Origin: Candidatus Sulfomarinibacteraceae bacterium
Lineage (GTDB): Bacteria > Acidobacteriota > Thermoanaerobaculia > Thermoanaerobaculales > Sulfomarinibacteraceae
DNA: 64,000 nt
NCBI GenBank assembly: GCA_963715955.1
Contig: CAVQSQ010000012.1
Span: 211,050-275,049 of the forward strand
Direction of reading: 5' to 3'
Below, piece by piece: positions 1-63,500 of this stretch. How positions within the stretch are numbered: position 1 is the first letter of the stretch; the number at the start of each line of letters is the position of its first letter. A program made the position numbers and the translations under genes. The notes beneath the pieces are model-generated. The model saw nothing but the letters and a program-made list of their open reading frames with translations. It ran no database searches and was not told the DNA's origin.

Positions 1-383
1 CTACCCGACCACCTTCATTCAGTCTGGTCACTTCCCGAAGGTGATGACGACTATCCTGCGCGATGGAGAAAACTCAAGGGGGTCTTTTCCCGCAATTACC
101 GCTCGATGGTGGTTCATCTGGTGAGGTGAACCCATCGCGACGGCGTAAAGGCGAGGTCGGCTTGTGGCAGCGGCGGTATTGGGAACACCGGATCCGGAAT
201 GCAGACGATTTTCGCCGCCACGTCGAATATACGCACTTCAATCCGGTCCGACACGGTTACGTTTCGAGAGCTGCGGATTGGCCGTATTCGAGCTTTCACC
301 ATCACGTCACAAAGGGGTGGATCGAACCGGACTGGGGAACCATCGAACCGGACGGACTTGTGGGCCTTGTCGCCGGAGAGTGA
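1..383 (+). CDS. REP-associated tyrosine transposase (RAYT, IS200/IS605-like HUH/Y1 enzyme); 5' end lies outside the window; apparent 1-nt frame break near 96-97
   Basis: Frame 1 from base 1 reads LPDHLHSVWSLPEGDDDYPARWRKLKGVFSRN, which includes the HUH motif HLH. Frame 3 continues LPLDGG...RRRKGEVGLWQRRYWEHRIRNADDFRRHVEYTHFNPVRHGYV..DWPYSSF, which includes the Y1 motif YxHxNPV. The frames join at AATTA (94-98). REP doublets follow immediately downstream. Confidence 0.8.
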
Positions 384-388
384 ATCAG

Positions 389-765
389 CTCTGATGGTGG
401 GCCGAGGCCCACCCTACCAGGCAACGGGTCCTTCGAGCCCGACGTAGGGTGGGCCTCGGCCCACCTTCAGAGCACTCGATGGACGCATGGCGCTGCAGCA
501 CGACGAGCGCGGTCCTCGATCCGCTGGGTTCGATACCTCTCCGTGAACGACTCTGATGGTGGGCCGAGGCCCACCCTACCAGGCAAGGGGTCCTTCGAGC
601 CCGACGTAGGGTGGGCCTTGGCCCACCTTCAGAGCACTCGATGGACCCATGGCGCTGCAGCACGACGAGGGCGGTCCTCGATCCGCTGGGTTCGATACCT
701 CTCCGTGAACGACTCTGATGGTGGGCCGAGGCCCACCCTACCAGGCAAGGTGTCCTTCGGGACCG
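389..765. repeat. REP-doublet (REPIN-like) tandem array, 162-bp unit, two full copies plus a partial third
   Basis: Units start at 389, 551 and 713. Each holds two inverted copies of GTAGGGTGGGCC(TC/GA)GGCCCACC, a hairpin of GGTGGGCC paired with GGCCCACC carrying a GTAG head, about 25 nt apart. The units differ by only a few substitutions. Confidence 0.9.
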
Positions 766-775
766 ACGAATGAGC

Positions 776-1237
776 TCACTCGGATGCGGAACAGCGTTCG
801 GCGTAGGTCTCGAGCACCGCGACCCAGCCGGTTTCGTAGTCCGCCCGGGTCTCTTCCGCGAGGTCCCCGAGAATCTCCCAGCCCCGGTGTTCGAGCTCGA
901 CGCGGGTCCCCTTTTTGGTGCCGATGAAGCGCAGTTCGATTTCCTGCGCGGTGGTGGCGTCCCTCCCCGGATGCCACGAAAAGACCACTCGGGCCGACGG
1001 CTCCCATGCCGTGATGGTGCCCCAAAGGTGAATCGTCCCGTCGTTGTGCGTCTCGTATATTCTGCCGCCGTCACGGCCCTCGAAATGACACGAGGCAGTT
1101 TCGGCCTGGCCGACCGAGTGCGTTGCCAGCGGCCACCAGCTGTCGATCTCATCGGTGAACAGACGGAAGGCGTCAGCCGGTCCACACGCCACCTCAACGG
1201 TCCTTCGAACCGGTTCAATGGTCGATTCAACGTTCAT
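776..1237 (-). CDS. SRPBCC / AHSA1 (activator of Hsp90 ATPase homolog 1-like) family protein
   Basis: Translation MNVESTIEPVRRTVEVACGPADAFRLFTDEIDSWWP... matches the family. GGAGG lies 5 nt upstream of the ATG at 1237. The gene overlaps the ArsR gene end by 11 nt, the usual ArsR-SRPBCC pairing. Confidence 0.8.
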   Translation of the reverse strand: MNVESTIEPVRRTVEVACGPADAFRLFTDEIDSWWPLATHSVGQAETASCHFEGRDGGRIYETHNDGTIHLWGTITAWEPSARVVFSWHPGRDATTAQEIELRFIGTKKGTRVELEHRGWEILGDLAEETRADYETGWVAVLETYAERCSASE

Positions 1238-1550
1238 CGCGTCCTCCGATCGTTGTTTCAGCACGAAGGGAGAAGGCCTGCAGGGCCTCTCCCCAGAACT
1301 CTTCCAGGTAGCGGCGGAGGGGTTCCAGTCCGCCGGGATCGATTTCGTAATAGTGCCTCCTGCCTTGCGCCCGTTCCCGAACCAGACCCGCCTCTTTGAG
1401 GGCCTTGAGGTGCTGCGACACGGCCGGCCGGCTCACCGGCAATCCTCGAGCCAACTCCCCCACCGACTGCGGTCCGTTGCGCAAGCTCTCGAAAACTGTT
1501 CTCCGCGTCGGATCGGCCAACGCTCGAAAAGGATCTTCGCGAGGTTTCAC
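1227..1550 (-). CDS. ArsR/SmtB family transcriptional regulator
   Basis: Winged-HTH signature FRALADPTRRTVFESLRNGPQSVGELARGLPVSRPAVSQHLKALKEAGLV. GTG start. Confidence 0.9.
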   Translation of the reverse strand: MKPREDPFRALADPTRRTVFESLRNGPQSVGELARGLPVSRPAVSQHLKALKEAGLVRERAQGRRHYYEIDPGGLEPLRRYLEEFWGEALQAFSLRAETTIGGRDER

Positions 1551-2623: not shown

Positions 2624-3430
2624 ATGAAGACAGAAAATCCGATTCGACTCGCCGGCGCGCTCTGCATCGCATCGATAGCTGCGTTCTCGGTGCGCCCGGT
2701 CTCGGCACAGGACACGTTTCGACCCGAGATCGTCGTCGCCGATGCCGCCGCCCACTGCCCGTCGGTGGCAGGCACGTTCGTGGTTCTGCTCGACCCTTCG
2801 CGAGGCATGCTGCTGTTGTCGGGCGCCCCCTTTCCGGGTGGTCACGTCATCGGTGATGCCCGCGGCGGCGAGCTGATGGTGAACCTCCCCGGCGGCACCT
2901 CTTGGAAACTCGACCGCGCGGGTTCCAACGCCGGGCAAACACCGCTGTGGGGTGCGCGCTACCCGTTCCTCGCCGCCAGCGGGTTCGGGTGCGTCGCCTT
3001 CGACCGCGACAACTGGTCGTCGGAGGGCGACCTCGTCACCTATGCAAGGTGGGTGGTCGAGGAGATCTACCTCCAGCTGCCCGCCGAGGAACGTCAGCGG
3101 CGACCGGACTTCCGGATCTCCAACCGCGACGTGGCGTTCCGTGTGGAACGCGACGGCTACCGGCCCCTGGAGATGAGCGGCAGGGAGGGTTCGACCCAGG
3201 CCGGCCGGTATCAGGACAGCCAGAGGACCTACCTCTTCATGCCCTTCGTGCTCGACGAGACCGAGGGACGGGTTGCCGTTCGGGTCTCGACCACCGACGG
3301 CGCCTATTTCGACACCACCGCAAAGACCGTTCTCGGGTGGGCCGTGGCCGCGCCAGGAGATCCCGGATCGCTGGCCGACACGACCGTCGTGGTGTTCGTC
3401 GACGGCGCTGCGGACGCCCCGAAGGAGTAG
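2624..3430 (+). CDS. exported hypothetical protein
   Basis: N-terminal signal peptide MKTENPIRLAGALCIASIAAFSVRPVSAQD. Non-repetitive, protein-like composition. No family recognised. Confidence 0.6.
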   Translation: MKTENPIRLAGALCIASIAAFSVRPVSAQDTFRPEIVVADAAAHCPSVAGTFVVLLDPSRGMLLLSGAPFPGGHVIGDARGGELMVNLPGGTSWKLDRAGSNAGQTPLWGARYPFLAASGFGCVAFDRDNWSSEGDLVTYARWVVEEIYLQLPAEERQRRPDFRISNRDVAFRVERDGYRPLEMSGREGSTQAGRYQDSQRTYLFMPFVLDETEGRVAVRVSTTDGAYFDTTAKTVLGWAVAAPGDPGSLADTTVVVFVDGAADAPKE

Positions 3431-10995: not shown

Positions 10996-11028
10996 CCAGC
11001 GCCGCAGAGCACCGCACCCTTTTCATGC

Positions 11029-11300
11029 CGACCGAGGGTGTGCAACACCTCTCTTCTCTCTGTCATCCCGACCGAGGGTGCGCAACACCTCTCTTCTCTC
11101 TGTCATCCCGACCGAGGGTGCGCAACACCTGCAACACCTCTCTTCTCTCTGTCATCCCGACCGAGGGAGCGCAACACCTCTCTTCTCTCTGTCATCCCGA
11201 CCGAGGGAGCGCAACACCTCTCTTCTCTCTGTCATCCCGACCGAGGGAGCGCAACACCTCTCTTCTCTCTGTCATCCCGACCGAGGGAGCGCAGCGACCG
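11029..11300. repeat. 40-bp minisatellite, about 6 copies (unit CGACCGAGGG(T/A)GCGCAACACCTCTCTTCTCTCTGTCATCC)
   Basis: Head-to-tail copies can be read directly. One copy carries a 9-bp internal duplication (GCAACACCT). There are no unique spacers. Confidence 0.9.
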
Positions 11301-11395: not shown

Positions 11396-11512
11396 CCCTG
11401 CGGGCCTTCGGTCGGGATGACAGGAATAGGAAGACCCTGCGGGCCTTCGGTCGGGATGACAGGAATAGGAAGACCCTGCGGGCCTTCGGTCGGGACGACA
11501 GGAAAAGGGCGC
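11396..11512. repeat. 39-bp minisatellite, 3 copies, carrying the inverted core of the 11029-11300 array
   Basis: Unit CCCTGCGGGCCTTCGGTCGGGATGACAGGAATAGGAAGA. The core CCTTCGGTCGGGATGAC is the reverse complement of GTCATCCCGACCGAGGG from the left array. Confidence 0.9.
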
Positions 11513-11567: not shown

Positions 11568-11622
11568 GACGTTCAACGTTCCAACGTTCCAACGTTCCAA
11601 CGTTTGAACGTTGCGACGTTGG
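11568..11622. repeat. 8-bp AACGTT-containing microsatellite ((C)CAACGTT, about 6 copies)
   Basis: Sequence gttcaacgttccaacgttccaacgttccaacgtttgaacgttgcgacgttgg. A shorter copy lies at 17129-17160. Confidence 0.8.
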
Positions 11623-12959: not shown

Positions 12960-13140
12960 TCAGCCTCTTGCAAAATCACCCGAAGTGAAAAGAATCGCGG
13001 CATGATGACCCTGAGAAGGGAGGGGATAAACCCCTCCCCTACGGCTGTTATGGACGGCATCCGTTCCCACAACCGATTCTGAACACCGTAGGGGCGGGGT
13101 TTATCCCCGCCCGCTCATGTCGAATTCTGCAAGAGGCTCA
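12960..13140 (+). repeat. MITE-like element, copy 1 of 3 (TIR GAGCCTCTTGCA; two internal GTAG-headed hairpins)
   Basis: Ends TCAGCCTCTTGCAAAA ... TGCAAGAGGCTCA. Internal hairpins GGGAGGGGATAAACCCCTCCCCTAC and GTAGGGGCGGGGTTTATCCCCGCCC. About 85-90 percent identical by eye to 52971-53151. Confidence 0.85.
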
Positions 13141-16859: not shown

Positions 16860-17085
16860 ATGTGAGCCGCGGAGTGGCGATAGAGAATAGCCTGGGGCGT
16901 GAGCCCCGGGGTTTTCGGGTTCTCTATTGAACCGAGCCCCGGAGGGGCGACAGATCAAGGCCGCGATGGAGTTTGTCCGTGTCGATGTTGAACACCTGTC
17001 GCCGCTCCGCGGCTTGGAAAATTTTTTTCCCATGTTCCTGGGGCTCACGCCCCAGGCTACAGCCTGTCGCTCCTTCGGAGCTCGC
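16860..17085. repeat. composite of short GC-rich hairpin modules (family shared with 55385-55625)
   Basis: Modules GAGCC(S)CGGAG(K)GGCGA(C/T)A at 16864 and 16934, with their complements at 16997 and 17065. CCTGGGGCGTGAGCCCCGG at 16891, with its complement at 17038. Confidence 0.8.
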
Positions 17086-35915: not shown

Positions 35916-38035
35916 CGTTGAGATCCCTTCTCGAGCTCATCGAGTTCCCATGGCGGAAGTTCAGTGTTCTCCTCGATCACGAAATGATCCATCCAACGCA
36001 TCAACCGCCGCGCGTAGTCGTCCCGCGAGGCGGCTCTCGAGTTCCCGTGCTTCTCACCGGGGTAGCGCACGTAGCGAACCGGGGTCTTGCCCGACAACTT
36101 GAGGGCCCGGTAGAGCTGCAGGCTCTGTGAAGGGTGGACCCGCGAATCGGCGGTGCCGCCGGCGATGAGCAACGGGGTCCGGGCGTTTTCGACGTATGCG
36201 ATCGGGCTGCGCTCGAGCCGGAACTGCAGCTTGGTCCACGGGTCCGCGAGAGTGTGGACCATCCGGTCTTCCACCGGAATTTCGGTGGTCAGCCCCTTGC
36301 TGATGTCGTTGCTGATGCCGACAAACATCACCCCCGCTTTGAAACGTTCGCTGTAGCGTGTGGCACACCAGGCGGTTGCGTAGCCGCCATAGGAGCCGCC
36401 GGTGATTCCGACACGGTCGGGATCCGCGATGCCGGCCTCCGCCAATGCGTCCACCGCGTCGAGCAGATCGTCGAACTCCGCCCCGGCGGCATCGGCCTGA
36501 CCGAGCTTCGAAAAGGCCACTCCGCGGCCGGTGCTGCCCCTGTAGTTTGGGAAAAACACGGCGTAACCGCGAGCGGCGGCAAGCTGAGCCGGCGCCGAAT
36601 ACGATGTCAGCCAACCGTTGCGGCGGTGGCCTTCGGGACCACCATGCACCATGAGCAACAACGGCGCGGGACCTTCGGTTTCACGGAGCGGCCGGAGCAA
36701 CACGCCGCTGAGGTCGAGCCCGTCCTTCGCCTGATGCCCGAAGACCTCCTGCAGTGCGAGATCCACATCCGCCAGCCAGGGATTGCTGTCGGTCAGCCGC
36801 CTCGGGCCTTCGTCGCCGTGGCTCATGACAAAGACCTCGGAAGGGTGGCGCGGCGAATCACCCACCAACACCGCGCGCTTCCCGTCACCGGCGACGGCGA
36901 GGCCCGTCATGACCGGGACCCGGGCGCTCCCCTGCTCGACGCCCGAGATTGCGTGGGTCTTTTGCGCGCCGGTGGAGATATCGACCTCGCCGAATCGCGT
37001 TTCCTCTCCTTCATCGGAGAGAAACATCAGGGTGTCGTCATCCTGCCACGCGAAGACGTTCACGTGGCCCTCGAGGTCCGGAAGCACGTCCTGCAGCGGA
37101 CCGCCCGCCGCCTCCGCCACCAGCAGCCGTCCGGCTGCAGGGTCGTTGGGATCGGCGGCCGATATCATCGCGAGGTGGGCGCCGTCTGGGCTGATTTCGA
37201 AATCGCCGAGCTTTCCGGGGTTGTCGAAGGACGACCGGGTTTCGCCGGTGTCCGCATCGACGATATGAACCCGGCGCGCCATGTACTGGTCGTCGATCAA
37301 CGGAGTCGGCGCCACATCCACCGCCAACCACTCTCCACCGGGGCTCCAGCGGACGTGGAAGACCGATCCCTCGATGGGAAGGGCGCGCGCCTCGACGTCG
37401 ACGCCTGGTGCCGTCGACGGATTCGCCGCTACCGGCTGAAACGGCGGCAAGGGTTGCAGCCAGACCCGCTTGGGCAACCAGTCCTCCTCGAAGACCTCCT
37501 GGGAAAAACCCTTCTCTTCAGCCTTGGTGCGGTCCTCGCTCTGCGGCTCTTTGGCAACGAAGGCGACCGTCGTCCCGTCGGGCGACACCCGGTAGTCGGT
37601 GATGTCGGTGCCGAACGAAATCAACCGCCTCGACTCACCCCCGGCGAGCGGGATCGCCCACAGCGCGGTGTGATCGTCTCCGTCGCGTTCGGCGAGATAC
37701 GTGATCAGCGAACCATCGGGGCTGAATCCGATCTGGGAGACCTTGACCTCGCCGCCGACAAAGGTCCGATCGCGGCCGTCGCCCCCGATCACGTGGAGCT
37801 CGACCCACGCGGGTCCGTCTTCGTCGATGCCGGGTCGGCGCGGCACGGTCAGAGCGTAGGCGATCGTGGCCCCGTCCGGCGACAGGACCGCTCCTCCCAC
37901 CGACCGCAGGGCGCCGAGTTGTTCAAAGGTCATCCCTTCGGCGCTTCCAGCCGCAGCGGGCGCGGCAGCGCACCACACGGCCGCCGCCAGCGCGGCCAGT
38001 CTCAAACGAAACGACGAATTGTGAATTCGCGACAT
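35912..38035 (-). CDS. S9 family serine peptidase (propeller plus alpha/beta hydrolase)
   Basis: GGSYGGY nucleophile motif. SPDG propeller repeats. Signal peptide. The stop overlaps the dcp start (ATGA). Confidence 0.9.
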   Translation of the reverse strand: MSRIHNSSFRLRLAALAAAVWCAAAPAAAGSAEGMTFEQLGALRSVGGAVLSPDGATIAYALTVPRRPGIDEDGPAWVELHVIGGDGRDRTFVGGEVKVSQIGFSPDGSLITYLAERDGDDHTALWAIPLAGGESRRLISFGTDITDYRVSPDGTTVAFVAKEPQSEDRTKAEEKGFSQEVFEEDWLPKRVWLQPLPPFQPVAANPSTAPGVDVEARALPIEGSVFHVRWSPGGEWLAVDVAPTPLIDDQYMARRVHIVDADTGETRSSFDNPGKLGDFEISPDGAHLAMISAADPNDPAAGRLLVAEAAGGPLQDVLPDLEGHVNVFAWQDDDTLMFLSDEGEETRFGEVDISTGAQKTHAISGVEQGSARVPVMTGLAVAGDGKRAVLVGDSPRHPSEVFVMSHGDEGPRRLTDSNPWLADVDLALQEVFGHQAKDGLDLSGVLLRPLRETEGPAPLLLMVHGGPEGHRRNGWLTSYSAPAQLAAARGYAVFFPNYRGSTGRGVAFSKLGQADAAGAEFDDLLDAVDALAEAGIADPDRVGITGGSYGGYATAWCATRYSERFKAGVMFVGISNDISKGLTTEIPVEDRMVHTLADPWTKLQFRLERSPIAYVENARTPLLIAGGTADSRVHPSQSLQLYRALKLSGKTPVRYVRYPGEKHGNSRAASRDDYARRLMRWMDHFVIEENTELPPWELDELEKGSQR

Positions 38036-38260
38036 ATCTCCTCCTCCTGCGATGAAACCTTCCGGGCCGTCGCCATTCTACAGAGTGTTTGCTTGCACCT
38101 CGAACCTTCGGCGCAGTTTTTCGTAGAACGATGCCAGGGAGGAGAGTTGTCATTTCGAACCTTTCGGGGCCCCTGCGAGGCCGAGGACACGATCGACGAC
38201 AACGCGGGTCTGCTCACCGCGCGGCGTTGCCTCTGCGGTCCGCGCACCGACAGCGACTCT

Positions 38261-38285
38261 GAAGGTGGGCCGGTGCCCACCCTTC
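38261..38285. repeat. solitary REP-like hairpin related to the 389-765 family
   Basis: GAAGGTGGGC-CGGT-GCCCACCCTTC. Confidence 0.5.
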
Positions 38286-38373
38286 GGACCAACCGGCCGA
38301 GCGGTCTTGGAGGTCGGACTTCAGCCTCCTCCAGAGTCGCTCCAGGTTCCGGGTGATTCGAGAGTGACGGGCG

Positions 38374-39261
38374 ATGGAAATCCGCCACCTCCGCCTGGTT
38401 CATACCCTCGCTACGGAGGGCACGCTGACCGCCGCCGGTCAGCGGCTCTATCTCTCCCAGTCGGCCTTGAGCCACCAACTCAAAGAGATCGAAAACGAGT
38501 TCGGGGTCAAGCTGTTTCGACGGTTCAGGAAGCGGATGGTGCTCACTCCGGCCGGCCAGAGATTCCTCGACAGCGCCGATGTTGTTCTCAACGAGATCGA
38601 AAAGGTGCGCGACGACATCTCGCGTCTGTCATCCGGGGAGACGGGGACTCTCCGCATCGCCGCCTGCCGCTCACTGGGTTTCAGGTGGCTCCCCGGCGTC
38701 GTCAACTCCTTCAAGAGCGCCTACCCGGATGTCGAATTGTCCATCGACCCACTGTGGGACCACGACCCGACCAACCGTGTGCTCACCGGAGCCGTCGACG
38801 TCGCCATCACGAATGCGAAGATCGACGACCGGGGGCTCGTCTATCTGAAGCTCTTTGACGACGAACTGGTGGCGGTCGTCCGTTCCGACCACCGGTGGGC
38901 CTGCAAAGACCACGTCGCGGCGCGCCTGCTGGCCGATGAGAACCTGGTCACGTTCGACTTCCCGGTGAACGGAACGGATATCAGGTCGACCACTCTCGCC
39001 CCTGCCGGAGTCACTCCGAAATCCGTCGTGACTCTGCCCACCATCGAGGCCATCGTCGACATGGTCAGAGGCGGCGCCGGCGTCGCCGTCCTCAACTCGT
39101 GGCCGGCCCGCCCGTTCCTGGCCGACGGCGGGTTGCGGATTGTTCGGCTCGGTCGCAGGGGCATTCAGCGATCGTGGTACGCCGCGGTGACCGAAGACGA
39201 CCAGAAACCTCCCTACATCGCCCGTTTCATCGGGCTCCTCGCCCACCAGGGGAAAAGCTAG
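38374..39261 (+). CDS. LysR family transcriptional regulator
   Basis: MEIRHLRLVHTLATEGTLTAAGQRLYLSQSALSHQLKEIE HTH region plus a LysR substrate-binding domain. Divergent from the S9-dcp operon. Confidence 0.9.
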   Translation: MEIRHLRLVHTLATEGTLTAAGQRLYLSQSALSHQLKEIENEFGVKLFRRFRKRMVLTPAGQRFLDSADVVLNEIEKVRDDISRLSSGETGTLRIAACRSLGFRWLPGVVNSFKSAYPDVELSIDPLWDHDPTNRVLTGAVDVAITNAKIDDRGLVYLKLFDDELVAVVRSDHRWACKDHVAARLLADENLVTFDFPVNGTDIRSTTLAPAGVTPKSVVTLPTIEAIVDMVRGGAGVAVLNSWPARPFLADGGLRIVRLGRRGIQRSWYAAVTEDDQKPPYIARFIGLLAHQGKS

Positions 39262-39322: not shown

Positions 39323-39401
39323 ATCGCGGCTTCCCACCGCACACGAATGTTCGAGTGCTCACACCGCTCGAGAGTGCGGATACGAGTCGTGTGCGGATAC
39401 C

Positions 39402-39510
39402 GGTCGCGTGCGGCGGAGGTGCCACTTTCAACATTGTTGGACACGCGAACATCCAAGTCGGCGGGATCCGATGGGGGCCAACAATGTTGAGGGTGGCTCC
39501 TCCCGGGAAG
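39402..39510. repeat. long-hairpin MITE-like element, copy 1 of 3
   Basis: Arms GGAGGTGCCACTTTCAACATTGTTGG and CCAACAATGTTGAGGGTGGCTCCTCC (about 26 nt) around a variable centre of about 35 nt. Conserved left flank GCGTGCGGCGG. Other copies lie at 54564-54668 and 63284-63388. Confidence 0.85.
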
Positions 39511-52068: not shown

Positions 52069-52884
52069 ATGAAGATCACACTCCTGCTCATCGTTTTTGT
52101 CGTGTTCGGTCTGACGAACTGCATCGCCAACACCGTCGAGACGCCGTCCGACGTGGCAGGCCCTCCGGACGACGCCGTGTGCGCGCCGAACGGACTGTGC
52201 TCCAAGGTCCTGACGCCCGGTACCGGCGACGCCCACCCCGACCCGTGGGACGACGTCACCGTCCACTATTCAGGCTGGACCACCGACGGCAAGCTCTTCG
52301 ACTCGTCCGTCCAGCGCGGGCAGACCGCGACCTTTCCGCTCAACAGGGTCATCCCTGGTTGGACCGAGGGCCTGCAACTGATGGTGGTCGGTGAGAAACG
52401 CCGGTTCTGGATCCCGAAGGAGCTGGCCTACAACGACATGCCGGGCAGACCTGCCGGAATGCTGGTTTTCGACATCGAGCTGTTTTCGATCCAGGACAAA
52501 CCCGAACCGCCACCGCCGCCGCCGGCTCCCGAAGACGTGGCGGGCCCGCCGGCCGGCGCCGAAGTGACCGCGAGCGGTCTCGCCTCCAAAGTGCTGCAGC
52601 CCGGAGTCGGCGACAAATATCCCACTGCGAGCTCGACGGTCACCGTCCACTACTCCGGGTGGACCACCGACGGCAAGCTCTTCGACTCTTCGGTGCAACG
52701 CGGTGAATCGATCTCGTTCCCGCTCAACCGGGTCATTGCAGGCTGGACCGAAGGGCTGCAGCTGATGGTGGTGGGCGAAAAGCGCCGCTTCTGGATTCCC
52801 GAAAACCTCGCATACAAGGGCCAGCCCGGGGCGCCCGCGGGCACGCTGGTCTTCGACGTGGAGCTGATTTCGTTCGCAGAGTGA
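52069..52884 (+). CDS. FKBP-type peptidyl-prolyl cis-trans isomerase, two tandem FKBP domains (lipoprotein)
   Basis: Lipobox [27 protein letters not shown]...[27 protein letters not shown] occurs twice. Confidence 0.85.
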
Positions 52885-52970
52885 GCGGAGAGGCCATGGG
52901 CTGTGGGCTGTGAGGTCAGCGCACAGATCCGGGTTCACTCGGACGACTGGAAACGGCCATGGCACATAGC

Positions 52971-53151
52971 TCAGCCTTTTGCAAAAACACCCGCAGTGAA
53001 AAGAACCGCGGCACGATGACACAGAGAAGGGAGGGGATAAACCCCTCCCCTACGGCTTTTATGGACGGCATCCGTTGTTACAGTCGATTCTGAACACCGT
53101 AGGGGCGGGGTTTATCCCCGCCCACTCATGTCGAGTTTTACAAGAGGCTCA
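52971..53151 (+). repeat. MITE-like element, copy 2 of 3 (same family as 12960-13140)
   Basis: Collinear with copy 1, including both GTAG hairpins and the TIRs TCAGCCTTTTGCAAAA ... ACAAGAGGCTCAG. Confidence 0.85.
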
Positions 53152-54563: not shown

Positions 54564-54668
54564 CGATGTGCGGCGGAGGTGCCATTTTCAACATTGTTGG
54601 ACGAACGAACACTCCTGTCGGCACGGCGACGCGGGCCAACAATGTTGAAGGTGGCTCCTCTCGGGAAC
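54564..54668. repeat. long-hairpin MITE-like element, copy 2 of 3
   Basis: GTGCGGCGGAGGTGCCATTTTCAACATTGTTGG ... CCAACAATGTTGAAGGTGGCTCCTCTCGGGAA. Confidence 0.85.
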
Positions 54669-54785
54669 CGCGATCAAAACGTCGGGTGCTCACCGGGGTC
54701 AGGAAACGGTGACCGGCACGGAATGAACACCACACTGATGGTGTAGAATCTATTCGAACCCGTCCACGCCGGAAGGATTTCCGGC

Positions 54786-55384: not shown

Positions 55385-55625
55385 ATATGCAGTCTCGAGA
55401 CCGAGCCCCGCAGGGGCGACAAAATGTAGCCCGGGGCGCAAGCCCCGGGTCCGCGGCAGAAAGTGAGTCCAAGCCGCGGAGCGGCGACAGACAGCCGCCT
55501 CCCACAGCCGCGGCTCACCGCGCAGCCAGAACCTGTCGCCCCTCTGGGGCTCTTCATTCTTGGTTCCGTGGTTGCCGGGGCTCACGCCCCGGCCTATTCT
55601 CTACCGCCGCTCCGCGGCTTCCTCT
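55385..55625. repeat. composite GC-rich hairpin-module repeat (same family as 16860-17085)
   Basis: GAGCCCCGCAGGGGCGACA (55403), AGCCGCGGAGCGGCGACA (55472), and their complements at about 55533 and 55603. GCCCGGGGCGCAAGCCCCGGG pairs with GCCGGGGCTCACGCCCCGGC. Confidence 0.8.
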
Positions 55626-55655
55626 GTCCAAGCATGAAATGAGGAACGACTCAGG

Positions 55656-55855
55656 TGAGCCTCTTGCAAAATTCAACCTGGGCGGGGATAAACCCCGCCC
55701 CTACGGCATTCAGGAACTCAGACGGAATTTAGACAAAACTTTCCCTTTGAGAGACTTAGCTTCTCAAACGTCGTAGGGGAGGGGTTTATCCCCTCCCATT
55801 TCGGTGTCTCTTTGGTGCGGTTCCATCCACTGCGGGTGTTTTTGCAAGAGGCTCA
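55656..55855 (-). repeat. MITE-like element, copy 3 of 3 (inverted, more diverged)
   Basis: TGAGCCTCTTGCAAAA ... GGCGGGGATAAACCCCGCCCCTAC ... GTAGGGGAGGGGTTTATCCCCTCCC ... TTTTGCAAGAGGCTCAG. Confidence 0.8.
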
Positions 55856-55902
55856 GGTGTCGCCGAGCGCGTCGAGGTTCTTCGATGAAACCTCAGAACG
55901 CA

Positions 55903-59460: not shown

Positions 59461-59712
59461 CACATGGCAGCCGGGACGGCTGCCCCACAAACCCTTTCAG
59501 AAACGGCTTGCTGGGCAGACACATGGCACGCGGGACGCGTGCCCCACAAACCGTTTCCGGGCCGTTTTGTGGGGCAGACACATGGCAGCGCGGGACGGCT
59601 GCCCCACAAACCCTTTCAGAAACGGCTTGCTGGGCAGACACATGGCACGCGGGACGCGTGCCCCACAAACCGTTTCCGGGCCGTTTTGTGGGGCGGCCGT
59701 CCCGGCTGCCAT
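59461..59712. repeat. about 119-bp tandem duplication (2.1 copies) built from GGCAGCC-GGGAC-GGCTGCC / GGCACGC-GGGAC-GCGTGCC hairpins
   Basis: Units start at 59461 and 59579. Related single hairpins lie at about 63148, 63246 and 63446. Confidence 0.9.
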
Positions 59713-59724
59713 GCGATTGATGAA

Positions 59725-63139: not shown

Positions 63140-63500
63140 GCGAGCTCAGGCAGCCGGGACGGCTGCCCCATCCGGCTCCGCCCGGGGCTTGCGTGACAAG
63201 CACTGACGGTGCTGTGTCGGCGTAGCGCGAAGCGCGAAGACGCATGGGGCAGGCGTCCCGCCTGCCATCTAGCGTGGGGAACGGGTCGCGTGCGGCGGAG
63301 GTGCCATTTTCAACATTGTTGGACTCAAGATCCTCCCCGTCGGCAAAACGACGCGGGCCAACAATGTTGAAGGTGGCTCCTCCCGGGAAGAACGTGCTGA
63401 TACGAACCGCGTGCCCCACAGCCGGGCCCGCCTTGATGATCGTTTGTGGGGCAGCCGTCCCGGCTGCCATCTAGCGTGGGGAACGGGTCGCGTGCGGCGG
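63140..63500. repeat. patchwork of nested repeat modules (GGCAGCC hairpins, long-hairpin element copy 3 at 63284-63388, direct repeat CATCTAGCGTGGGGAACGGGTCGCGTGCGGCGG twice)
   Basis: The 33-nt string at 63265-63297 recurs at 63468-63500. Hairpins lie at 63148-63176, 63246-63268 and 63446-63470. Confidence 0.8.

What the first reader, a model, noticed from the sequence alone, without database searches (positions are those of the whole stretch)
1..765. RAYT transposase flanked by a tandem array of its probable REP doublets
The window opens inside an HUH/Y1 REP-associated tyrosine transposase carrying the HLH and YTHFNPV motifs. Six nucleotides after its stop a 162-bp unit begins and repeats 2.3 times. 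Each unit carries two inverted copies of a GTAG-headed hairpin, GTAGGGTGGGCC(nn)GGCCCACC. That is the REPIN architecture expected for RAYT substrates, since GTAG is the conserved head of enterobacterial and pseudomonad REPs. A related lone hairpin lies at 38261-38285. A second GTAG-headed hairpin family, GTAGGGG(A/C)GGGGTTTATCCCC(T/G)CCC, sits inside the three MITE-like elements. One RAYT may therefore service, or have serviced, more than one hairpin family. The RAYT reading frame is itself broken near 96.
Basis: partly seen in the sequence, partly recalled or inferred. Interest (0 to 1): 0.55.

Follow-up and report, generated by a model that had tools for sequence, protein, structure and literature searches.

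The report
RAYT transposase with its REPIN array
The window opens inside a frameshifted REP-associated tyrosine transposase gene followed by a tandem array of the hairpin doublets (REPINs) it is expected to mobilise; this arrangement is already well described, here in a probable acidobacterium.

Summary
Bases 1-383 encode the C-terminal two thirds of a RAYT/TnpA_REP: NCBIfam NF047646 E 8.6e-37, E. coli TnpA_REP structure 4ER8 E 2e-29. The HUH motif and the catalytic Tyr are present. One base is missing at about 103-105.

Bases 389-768 are 2.3 copies of a 162-nt unit. They hold five GTAG-headed 7-bp hairpins in alternating orientation, that is, two complete REPINs plus one extra REP. Three relatives with intact RAYTs (70-78% identical to the window fragment over the shared region) carry the same hairpin against the gene, on both flanks in two of them. 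The hairpin core is dispersed in many genomes, mostly away from any RAYT.

A decayed full-length REPIN lies at 38256-38339, so the family is not purely local.

Elsewhere the second family abuts a different RAYT clade, only 27-33% identical.

This matches the known REPtron / RAYT-adjacent REPIN cluster (Bertels & Rainey 2011; Ton-Hoang 2012). It is a new member of a known kind, of low to moderate interest. The source contig could not be extended, so genome-wide copy number and the RAYT N-terminus remain unknown.

The parts
1..102 (+). RAYT (TnpA_REP) coding sequence, frame 1. It is cut by the window edge and starts at profile position 55 of 146. It contains the HUH motif H-L-H at 10-18.
103..105 (+). 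Site of a 1-nt deletion relative to the 183-aa homologues (frame 1 to frame 3). There is no homopolymer and no slippery heptamer.
   Evidence: alignment A1; one inserted N restores a 127-codon ungapped match to the L001, L242 and L243 genes
105..383 (+). RAYT coding sequence, frame 3. It includes WQRRYWEH, the catalytic Tyr (228-230) in YTHFNPV, a C-terminal tail ending AGE, and the stop at 381-383.
389..417 (-). REP 1. On the - strand it reads GTAG + GGTGGGC/CTCG/GCCCACC + tail ATCAGAG.
418..443 (.). 26-nt head-to-head linker inside REPIN 1.
444..472 (+). REP 2 (GTAG hairpin + tail TTCAGAG). Bases 388-473 together form REPIN 1, an 86-nt hairpin of -41.5 kcal/mol.
473..550 (.). 78-nt tail-to-tail linker. 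It shows no structure signal (z +1.75) and has no match in any fetched locus.
551..634 (.). REPIN 2: REP 3 (-) at 551-579, a 26-nt linker, and REP 4 (+) at 606-634 with loop variant CTTG.
635..712 (.). Second copy of the 78-nt tail-to-tail linker.
713..768 (-). REP 5 (713-741) plus its 26-nt linker. The array ends where the next GTAG head would start (...GACG|AATG instead of ...GACG|TAGG), 8 nt before the stop codon of the convergent gene.
776..1264 (-). Convergent neighbour, an AHSA1/SRPBCC-family protein. It is not part of the element and marks the end of the intergenic space that the array fills.
38256..38339 (.). Decayed full-length family-1 REPIN. The left arm keeps its hairpin but has a GAAG head. 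The linker resembles the L001 linker. The right arm has eroded to GGAGGTCGGACTTCAGCCTCCTCCAGAG.
12960..13140 (.). Family-2 element. It carries an inverted pair of GTAGGGG(A/C)GGGGTTTATCCCC(T/G)CCC hairpins with heads facing inward, plus outer inverted repeats of about GAGCCTCTTGCAAAA. It probably belongs to a different RAYT clade.
52970..53151 (.). Family-2 element, 91% identical to 12960-13140.
55656..55856 (.). Family-2 element in inverted orientation, about 70% identical to the other two and about 80% identical to L001 15487-15675.

Best explanation
This is the 3' half of a REPtron, meaning a RAYT gene embedded in its own REP sequences. The RAYT is a single-copy, domesticated HUH/Y1 transposase of the E. 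coli TnpA_REP type.

Each REP is GTAG, then a perfect 7-bp stem (GGTGGGC/GCCCACC) with a 4-nt loop, then a conserved 3' tail WTCAGAG. Two REPs head-to-head, 26 nt apart, form a REPIN, the non-autonomous mobile unit. The REPIN together with a 78-nt flank has been tandemly duplicated 2.3 times and fills the space between two convergent genes.

Inferred mechanism, taken from the tested E. coli, S. maltophilia and Marinomonas enzymes: on single-stranded DNA the RAYT binds the folded hairpin together with the GTAG tag. It cleaves at a dinucleotide 5' or 3' of the hairpin through a 5'-phosphotyrosine bond and rejoins the strands. This excises and inserts REPINs. The tandem amplification itself most likely arose by ordinary slippage or unequal recombination between REPINs.

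In this genome the RAYT reading frame is interrupted by a 1-nt deletion. That deletion is either very recent or a sequencing error.

Shown here: the identity of the protein, the hairpin architecture, the conserved RAYT-REP linkage, and dispersal in other genomes. Inferred: cleavage chemistry, mobility, and the current activity of this copy.
For: Protein:
- NF047646 REP_Tyr_transpos scores E 8.6e-37, 126 bits against a cut-off of 80, with no IS200 model hit.
- 4ER8 matches at E 2.3e-29. The full-length relative P0002 aligns to 4ER8 over 1-169 at E 1e-37.
- The HUH motif and the Tyr aligned to E. coli Y115 are present.

Selection:
- dN/dS against the L001 orthologue is 0.17: 0.08 upstream and 0.21 downstream of the frameshift. 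There are no other stops.

DNA:
- Five exact hairpins against 0.01 expected.
- Alternating orientation with two linker lengths.
- A single REP folds at -8 kcal/mol, z -3.1. The REPIN folds at -41.5 kcal/mol, z -10.6.

Linkage:
- L001 has 4 REPs upstream and 6 downstream of an intact RAYT.
- L243 has 3 upstream and 3 downstream. L242 has 3 downstream.
- L097, L118, L112 and L042 also have REPs abutting the RAYT.

Structure covariation:
- Loop-closing pair 12:15 is C:G in 44 copies (CTTG, CTCG) and T:A in 113 copies (TTCA, TTTA) out of 190.
- Pair 11:16 is flipped C:G to G:C in L242.

Dispersal:
- 116 of 120 REP-bearing genome stretches have no RAYT.
- One Ca. Sulfomarinibacteraceae MAG has REPINs with the same 27-nt head spacing on at least 4 contigs, including an 11-copy array with no RAYT in that 8-kb stretch.
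- A relic REPIN lies at 38256-38339 in the window.

Literature:
- Tandem REPIN clusters sit beside each RAYT of P. fluorescens SBW25 (PMC3116915).
- CT cleavage and the role of GTAG are described in PMC8266576.
Against: - The reading frame is broken, so this copy may be inactive.
- Only the 3' flank is visible. The N-terminus and the 5' flank lie off the window.
- In 63 kb outside the array there is no intact REP, only one relic with both GTAG heads mutated. The REPIN population of this genome may therefore be small or decaying.
- Pfam Y1_Tnp does not reach threshold for the fragment, and it scores only 21.4 bits against a cut-off of 23 for full-length P0002.
- No cleavage site is identifiable. 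A CT directly 3' of the stem exists only in the TTCAGAG-tail copies.
- No biochemical data exist for this clade.
Confidence: 0.88

Rival explanations
1. Dead relic. The RAYT is a pseudogene and the array is only a local tandem repeat left from an extinct REPIN population. Nothing here is mobile any more.
For: There is a 1-nt deletion at about 103-105. The only other copy in 64 kb is decayed, with both GTAG heads mutated (GAAG, GGAG) and one stem eroded. No intact dispersed copy exists in the window.
Against: dN/dS is 0.17 with no additional stops, and all catalytic motifs are intact on both sides of the shift. So any inactivation is recent, or the shift is a sequencing error. All five array hairpins keep perfect GTAG heads and perfect stems.
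Confidence: 0.3
2. One RAYT mobilises both GTAG hairpin families in the window.
For: Both families carry the GTAG head and the same heads-inward doublet layout. Only one RAYT is present in the 64-kb window. L001 also carries both families near a family-1 RAYT.
Against: In metagenome contigs the family-2 hairpins directly abut, and partly overlap the start and stop of, a different RAYT clade: L165, L192, L209/L210 and L215. That clade is 44-54% identical within itself and 27-33% identical to the window clade. The partition is clean, 7 of 7 against 5 of 5. That clade matches 4ER8 only at E 1e-4. Published surveys find repeat-specific REPtrons (PMC3733652, PMC3116915).
Confidence: 0.1
3. The hairpins are the ends of an autonomous IS200/IS605 insertion sequence, not REPs.
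For: The protein belongs to the same HUH/Y1 superfamily, and IS200/IS605 ends are subterminal hairpins.
Against: Only the REP_Tyr_transpos model hits, with no IS200 model for the window protein at E up to 1. Multiple hairpins sit in alternating orientation on each flank rather than one left end and one right end. The gene sits at a syntenic position in L242 and L243, as expected for a vertically inherited single-copy gene. Hairpins are scattered without the gene in 116 of 120 stretches.
Confidence: 0.03
4. The array is primarily a host regulatory element, for example an mRNA 3' stabiliser or an insulator between convergent genes, retained for that role. This does not exclude a mobile origin.
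For: The array fills the whole 392-nt gap between two convergent stop codons (383 and 776). REP/BIME roles in mRNA stability and protein binding are documented for E. coli (PMC3333891 abstract).
Against: There is no intrinsic-terminator-like site in the array. The 78-nt linker has no structure signal. Nothing here tests expression.
Confidence: 0.2

Closest known systems
RAYT-adjacent tandem REPIN clusters of Pseudomonas fluorescens SBW25 (Bertels & Rainey 2011, PMC3116915)
   Same: A RAYT gene has a cluster of its own REPINs next to it. [quoted passage not shown] The doublets are inverted REPs that fold into one long hairpin. Each REPIN family has its own RAYT.
   Different: The host is a probable acidobacterium (Thermoanaerobaculia-like) rather than Pseudomonas. 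The RAYT is closer to the E. coli type. REP density outside the cluster appears low: one relic in 63 kb. The gene is frameshifted.
E. coli REPtron: TnpA_REP (YafM/RayT, PDB 4ER8) with BIMEs (Ton-Hoang 2012, PMC3333891; Messing 2012, PMC3479197)
   Same: The full-length relative P0002 aligns over almost the whole protein (4ER8, E 1e-37). HUH, the Tyr equivalent to Y115 and the WQxRxWEH block are conserved. By inference the C-terminal tail ends in A-G-E like the G160/E161 that contact GTAG. The REPs carry a 5' GTAG. They alternate in orientation with two linker types, as in BIMEs.
   Different: E. coli REPs are 29-37 nt imperfect palindromes with an obligatory bulge. Here the palindrome is short (7-8 bp) and perfect, the type that PMC8266576 associates with group 3 enzymes. 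There is a conserved 3' tail WTCAGAG. The protein has a roughly 17-aa insertion before WQRRYWEH.
S. maltophilia REPtron Sm (group 3; Corneloup 2021, PMC8266576)
   Same: The REP is GTAG directly followed by an 8-bp perfect palindrome with a short loop.
   Different: Formal group assignment was not made here, because no group 3 reference sequence was available to these tools. The window protein carries the C-terminal extension that the paper says group 3 lacks.
IS200/IS605 insertion sequences
   Same: Both use a Y1 HUH transposase acting on single-stranded DNA hairpins with a 5' guide tetranucleotide.
   Different: There is no IS200 profile match. The element is not a discrete mobile unit with one left end and one right end. 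The gene is single-copy and syntenic in relatives.

Membership tests
RAYT / TnpA_REP (NCBIfam NF047646) | Profile score above the curated cut-off | tested here: met
   126.3 bits against a cut-off of 80, E 8.6e-37, profile positions 55-146, even though the protein is truncated.
RAYT / TnpA_REP (NCBIfam NF047646) | HUH metal-binding motif and catalytic Tyr in Y-x-x-x-N-P-V | tested here: met
   H-L-H is at nt 10-18. The Tyr at nt 228-230 aligns with E. coli Y115.
RAYT / TnpA_REP (NCBIfam NF047646) | Gene flanked by GTAG-tagged REPs | tested here: met
   The 3' flank has five REPs starting 6 nt after the stop. The 5' flank is off the window, but both flanks are occupied in relatives L001 and L243.
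RAYT / TnpA_REP (NCBIfam NF047646) | Intact open reading frame | tested here: not met
   A 1-nt deletion lies at about 103-105. The N-terminal 56 codons lie outside the window.
RAYT / TnpA_REP (NCBIfam NF047646) | Single copy, vertically inherited (not IS-like) | tested here: inconclusive
   There is one copy in 64 kb, and L242 and L243 are syntenic. The source genome could not be retrieved.
REP / REPIN | Short palindrome with a conserved 5' GTAG; two copies inverted and close together that fold as one long hairpin | tested here: met
   GTAG plus a 7-bp stem. Doublets have 26-nt linkers. The 86-nt fold is -41.5 kcal/mol, z -10.6.
REP / REPIN | Extragenic location | tested here: met
   The array lies between convergent stops at 383 and 776. 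The relic lies between ORFs ending at 38035 and starting at 38374.
REP / REPIN | Many dispersed copies in the same genome | tested here: inconclusive
   The window holds only one extra, decayed REPIN. A related MAG has copies on at least 4 contigs, and 116 of 120 REP-bearing stretches lack a RAYT.
REP / REPIN | Mobility (excision or insertion events) | not testable with these tools
   This needs population sequencing or strain comparison.
BIME (E. coli-type mosaic element) | REPs in alternating orientation separated by two alternating linker classes | tested here: met
   The head-to-head linker is 26 nt and the tail-to-tail linker 78 nt, repeated.
BIME (E. coli-type mosaic element) | Linker motifs binding IHF, gyrase or Pol I | not tested
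   No motif model was available. The linkers are not conserved between the window, L001 and L016.
IS200/IS605 insertion sequence | Match to an IS200 transposase profile; a discrete element with one left and one right hairpin end | tested here: not met
   There is no IS200 model hit at E up to 1 for the window protein. Each flank carries arrays of several hairpins in relatives.
Group 2 RAYT-REP pairing as characterised in PMC8266576 | Long REP stem interrupted by a bulge or irregular zone | tested here: not met
   The stem is a perfect 7-8 bp palindrome. The protein side looks E. coli-like. Formal group assignment was not made.

The most novel reading that the evidence does not exclude
This window may capture a REPIN-RAYT system in a Thermoanaerobaculia-like acidobacterium at the moment of collapse. 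The transposase is freshly frameshifted, its proximal REPIN array is still perfect, and dispersed copies are already eroding. The clade may also be an exception to the published pairing rule. It is an E. coli-type RAYT with a long C-terminal tail and about 45% identity to 4ER8. It works on short perfect palindromes plus a conserved 3' WTCAGAG tail. The same 18-nt REP core is shared with RAYTs only about 53% identical in Gammaproteobacteria, and the core also occurs, without a RAYT in the stretches sampled, in Planctomycetota.
Probability: 0.25. Interest if true: 0.4.

Novelty: new member of a known kind. Interest (0 to 1): 0.22.

Why it matters
The finding adds a clean REPtron/REPIN example from Acidobacteriota. 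Earlier surveys of that phylum reported mainly TIR-associated tyrosine transposases (TIRYTs) rather than GTAG REPs (PMC3733652). It shows the same REP core conserved next to RAYTs that are only about 50% identical across phyla. It also gives a natural pair, a frameshifted gene against intact orthologues, that could be used to study what happens to REPINs after RAYT loss. For annotation, the 281-aa ORF at 385-1230(-) and the small ORFs inside the array are spurious. None of this changes current understanding of RAYT systems.

Tried and rejected
Extending the contig to the left:
- Three exact-protein look-ups found nothing on record: 776-1264(-), 776-1237(-) and 2624-3430(+).
- An exact 40-mer scan of metagenome contigs returned 0 hits.
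- None of the 121 loci held at that point (L001-L121) is near-identical to the window.

Other searches that gave nothing useful:
- Pfam on the truncated RAYT gave no hit even at E 10.
- Cluster member names for the closest homologues are all unnamed.
- The tRNA scan found none, so the GGTTCGATACC in the linker is not a tRNA remnant.
- The terminator scan found nothing in the array.
- The fold of the 78-nt linker is no better than shuffles.

Readings rejected:
- Programmed frameshift: there is no slippery heptamer or homopolymer at 96-110 (reading).
- CRISPR-like array: the units are 162 nt and contain inverted hairpins with no spacers.

The search for a RAYT next to Acido-Lenti-1-type hairpins in the fetched loci found none.

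Full report
**What is in the sequence**

The window starts inside a gene.
- Frame 1 of bases 1-102 reads LPDHLHSVWSLPEGDDDYPARWRKLKGVFSRNYR.
- Frame 3 continues from about 105 to a TGA at 381-383. It reads ...GEVNPSRRRKGEVGLWQRRYWEHRIRNADDFRRHVEYTHFNPVRHGYVSRAADWPYSSFHHHVTKGWIEPDWGTIEPDGLVGLVAGE.

The joined fragment scores as follows:
- NCBIfam NF047646 'REP-associated tyrosine transposase': E 8.6e-37, 126 bits against a cut-off of 80, profile positions 55-146 of 146. No IS200 model is reported.
- E. coli TnpA_REP structure 4ER8: E 2.3e-29.
- Pfam Y1_Tnp does not hit the fragment. It is just below threshold even for a full-length relative: P0002 scores 21.4 bits against a cut-off of 23.

The HUH motif (H-L-H, nt 10-18) is present. 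So is the Tyr that aligns with E. coli Y115 (nt 228-230).

**The frame break**

Nine homologues were aligned, six of them 183 aa long; the closest are 77-78% identical. They read ...FSREYRAGGGS.GEVNPSRRRK... The window reads FSRNYR in frame 1 and then (L)DGGSSGEVNPSRRRK in frame 3.

Inserting one N restores an ungapped 127-codon match to the orthologues in L001, L242 and L243. Nei-Gojobori dN/dS against L001 is 0.17: 0.08 before the shift and 0.21 after it. There are no other stops. The gene was under purifying selection for essentially all of its divergence. The break is either very recent or a sequencing error. There is no homopolymer or slippery site there.

**The array**

TRF finds 389-768 with period 162, 2.3 copies, 96% matches and score 711.

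The pattern GTAGGGTGGGCCNNGGCCCACC matches exactly five times, at 396-417(-), 444-465(+), 558-579(-), 606-627(+) and 720-741(-). Shuffles give 0.01 expected.

The conserved REP is 29 nt: GTAG, a 7-bp stem GGTGGGC/GCCCACC around a 4-nt loop, then the tail (A/T)TCAGAG.

The REPs alternate in orientation.
- Heads face each other across a 26-nt linker.
- Tails are separated by a 78-nt linker.
- The layout is therefore REPIN - linker - REPIN - linker - REP.

Folding results:
- A single REP folds at -8 kcal/mol (z -3.1).
- The 86-nt doublet 388-473 folds as one long hairpin at -41.5 kcal/mol (z -10.6).
- The 78-nt linker has no structure signal.

The array fills the whole gap between the RAYT stop (383) and the stop of a convergent AHSA1-family gene (776). 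It ends exactly where the next GTAG would begin. No intrinsic terminator is predicted in it. The 281-aa ORF at 385-1230(-) that runs through it is spurious.

**Linkage between this RAYT clade and this hairpin**

- L001 is a 101-kb ENA contig whose intact 183-aa RAYT (P0002) is 78% identical to the window fragment. It has four family-1 REPs upstream and six downstream of the gene, period 121, and none elsewhere in 20.5 kb.
- L243 has three upstream and three downstream, plus one 5.4 kb away.
- L242 is from Acidobacteria bacterium Ww181 (JAHECW01). It has three downstream, with the stem variant GGTGGGG/CCCCACC, a compensatory flip of the stem pair next to the loop.
- L242 and L243 are syntenic around the RAYT, consistent with vertical inheritance.

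**Dispersal of the hairpin core**

The stretches hold 190 exact copies. They come from Pseudomonas/Stutzerimonas, Xanthomonadales, Planctomycetota, Acidobacteriota and others. Isolated single hits in odd taxa may be chance.

Only 4 of the 120 scan stretches (L042, L097, L112, L118) contain a RAYT. In each the REPs abut the gene.

The pair that closes the loop covaries: C:G in 44 copies and T:A in 113 copies out of 190.

One Ca. Sulfomarinibacteraceae MAG (Acidobacteriota, Thermoanaerobaculia) has REPINs with the same 27-nt head-to-head spacing and the same WTCAGA tail on at least four contigs. One of these is an 11-copy array with no RAYT in its 8-kb stretch.

**Dispersal within the window**

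The 'lone hairpin' at 38264-38285 is the intact arm of a full-length decayed REPIN at 38256-38339.
- Its linker matches the L001 linker.
- Its second arm is eroded.
- Both heads are mutated, to GAAG and GGAG.

The family is therefore not purely local. However, the window gives no sign of a large healthy population.

**The second hairpin family**

The six copies form three elements of about 180-200 nt at 12960-13140, 52970-53151 and 55656-55856. Their heads face inward and they carry additional outer inverted repeats. The window holds only one RAYT.

A metagenome scan with the family-2 pattern returned 120 stretches, again at the limit. Five of them (four distinct) carry a RAYT-like gene whose start and stop abut or overlap family-2 hairpins. 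Two of these proteins (L165, L192) were scanned. Both pass NF047646 (98 and 106 bits) and Pfam Y1_Tnp (42-43 bits). The clade is only 27-33% identical to the window clade, and the L165 protein matches 4ER8 at just E 1e-4.

The partition is clean:
- 7 of 7 RAYTs beside family 1 are of the window type.
- 5 of 5 beside family 2 are of the other type.

This agrees with published statements that each GTAG family has its own REPtron (PMC3733652; PMC3116915). It cannot be excluded for this particular genome.

**Comparison with what is known**

[quoted passage not shown] They found one such cluster beside each of the three RAYTs of SBW25 (PMC3116915). Ton-Hoang et al. named the RAYT-plus-REP unit a REPtron. 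The window matches this description feature for feature.

The differences are of degree.
- The host is probably an acidobacterium. Supporting evidence: relatives from Acidobacteria MAGs, and four Rfam Acido-Lenti-1 hits in the window.
- The protein is E. coli-like. It has about 45% identity to 4ER8, a long C-terminal tail, and a terminal A-G-E that I infer to be equivalent to the G160/E161 that contact GTAG in PMC8266576.
- The REP is a short perfect palindrome. PMC8266576 associates that type with group 3 enzymes. I could not assign the group formally because no group 3 reference sequence was available.

**Mechanism**

By homology to the tested enzymes (PMC8266576, PMC3333891), the RAYT should:
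1. bind the folded single-stranded REP together with GTAG;
2. cut at a dinucleotide (CT, or CA in one system) 5' or 3' of the hairpin through a phosphotyrosine bond;
3. rejoin the strands, moving REPINs.

The clade-specific conserved tail TCAGAG is a candidate for the 3' cleavage context. This is speculation. The tandem amplification of REPIN plus flank is more simply explained by slippage or unequal recombination.

**Limits**

- The source contig could not be found or extended. The N-terminus, the upstream flank and the genome-wide copy numbers remain unknown.

**Verdict**

The side hypothesis is not favoured. This is a new member of a known kind, of low to moderate interest.

Noticed in passing
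window 16865-17082 and 55404-55619: Four hits to the Rfam family Acido-Lenti-1 sRNA (RF01687), at 41.8-55.4 bits against a gathering score of 37. They occur as two inverted doublets of about 218 nt. On the opposite strand each copy reads (G/A)TAG followed directly by a perfect 8-bp hairpin, for example GTAG CCTGGGGC GTGA GCCCCAGG. This 'RNA motif' therefore looks like a third REP/REPIN-like DNA repeat family. Two of the four heads are ATAG rather than GTAG. No RAYT was found next to such copies in the fetched loci. None of the four listed papers (of five in the library that hold the family name) links it to REPs in title or abstract; the papers were not read.
   Followed up: partly
window 55402-55856: An Acido-Lenti-1-type doublet (55404-55619) sits only about 36 nt from a family-2 element (55656-55856). 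This is a small cluster of unrelated hairpin elements in one intergenic region.
   Followed up: no
window 11023-11293 and 11396-11508: Two tandem arrays: a 40-nt unit x6.6 and a 39-nt unit x2.9. Their units are partly reverse-complementary (TCATCCCGACCGAGGG / CCTTCGGTCGGGATGA), so together they form a large inverted structure. An 8-nt ACGTTCCA repeat follows at 11569-11620.
   Followed up: no
window 59461-59713; related copies at 63245-63298 and 63447-63500: A palindromic 59/119-nt tandem array built from hairpins CTGCCCCAC...GTGGGGCAG and CATGGCAGCCGGGACGGCTGCC. Short related copies lie near 63.3-63.5 kb. This is another repeat family of unknown nature.
   Followed up: no
window 39391-39510, 54568-54673, 63274-63390 (shared start motif also at about 11560): A dispersed element of about 110 nt, 82-88% identical between copies. 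It forms a long hairpin (GGAGGTGCCATTTTCAACATTGTTGG ... CCAACAATGTTGAAGGTGGCTCCTCC) preceded by GTCGCGTGCGGCGGAGGTGCC. There is no Rfam match at gathering threshold.
   Followed up: no
L002-L121 (genome scan): The 18-nt core GTAGGGTGGGC/GCCCACC recurs in Gammaproteobacteria (mostly with loops TTCA/TTTA and no TCAGAG tail), Planctomycetota and Acidobacteriota (mostly with loops CTTG/CTCG and the WTCAGA tail). The adjacent RAYTs are only about 50-55% identical. The REP core is therefore more conserved than its transposase across phyla.
   Followed up: partly
L042 123-481: A Desulfovibrionales MAG contig has a family-1-type RAYT whose tblastn match is split into two pieces in different frames, next to a REP. 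This may be a second independently frameshifted RAYT.
   Followed up: no
window 52150-52491 / 52534-52875: A 342-nt direct duplication at 74% identity lies inside an ORF-rich stretch, probably a repeated protein domain.
   Followed up: no
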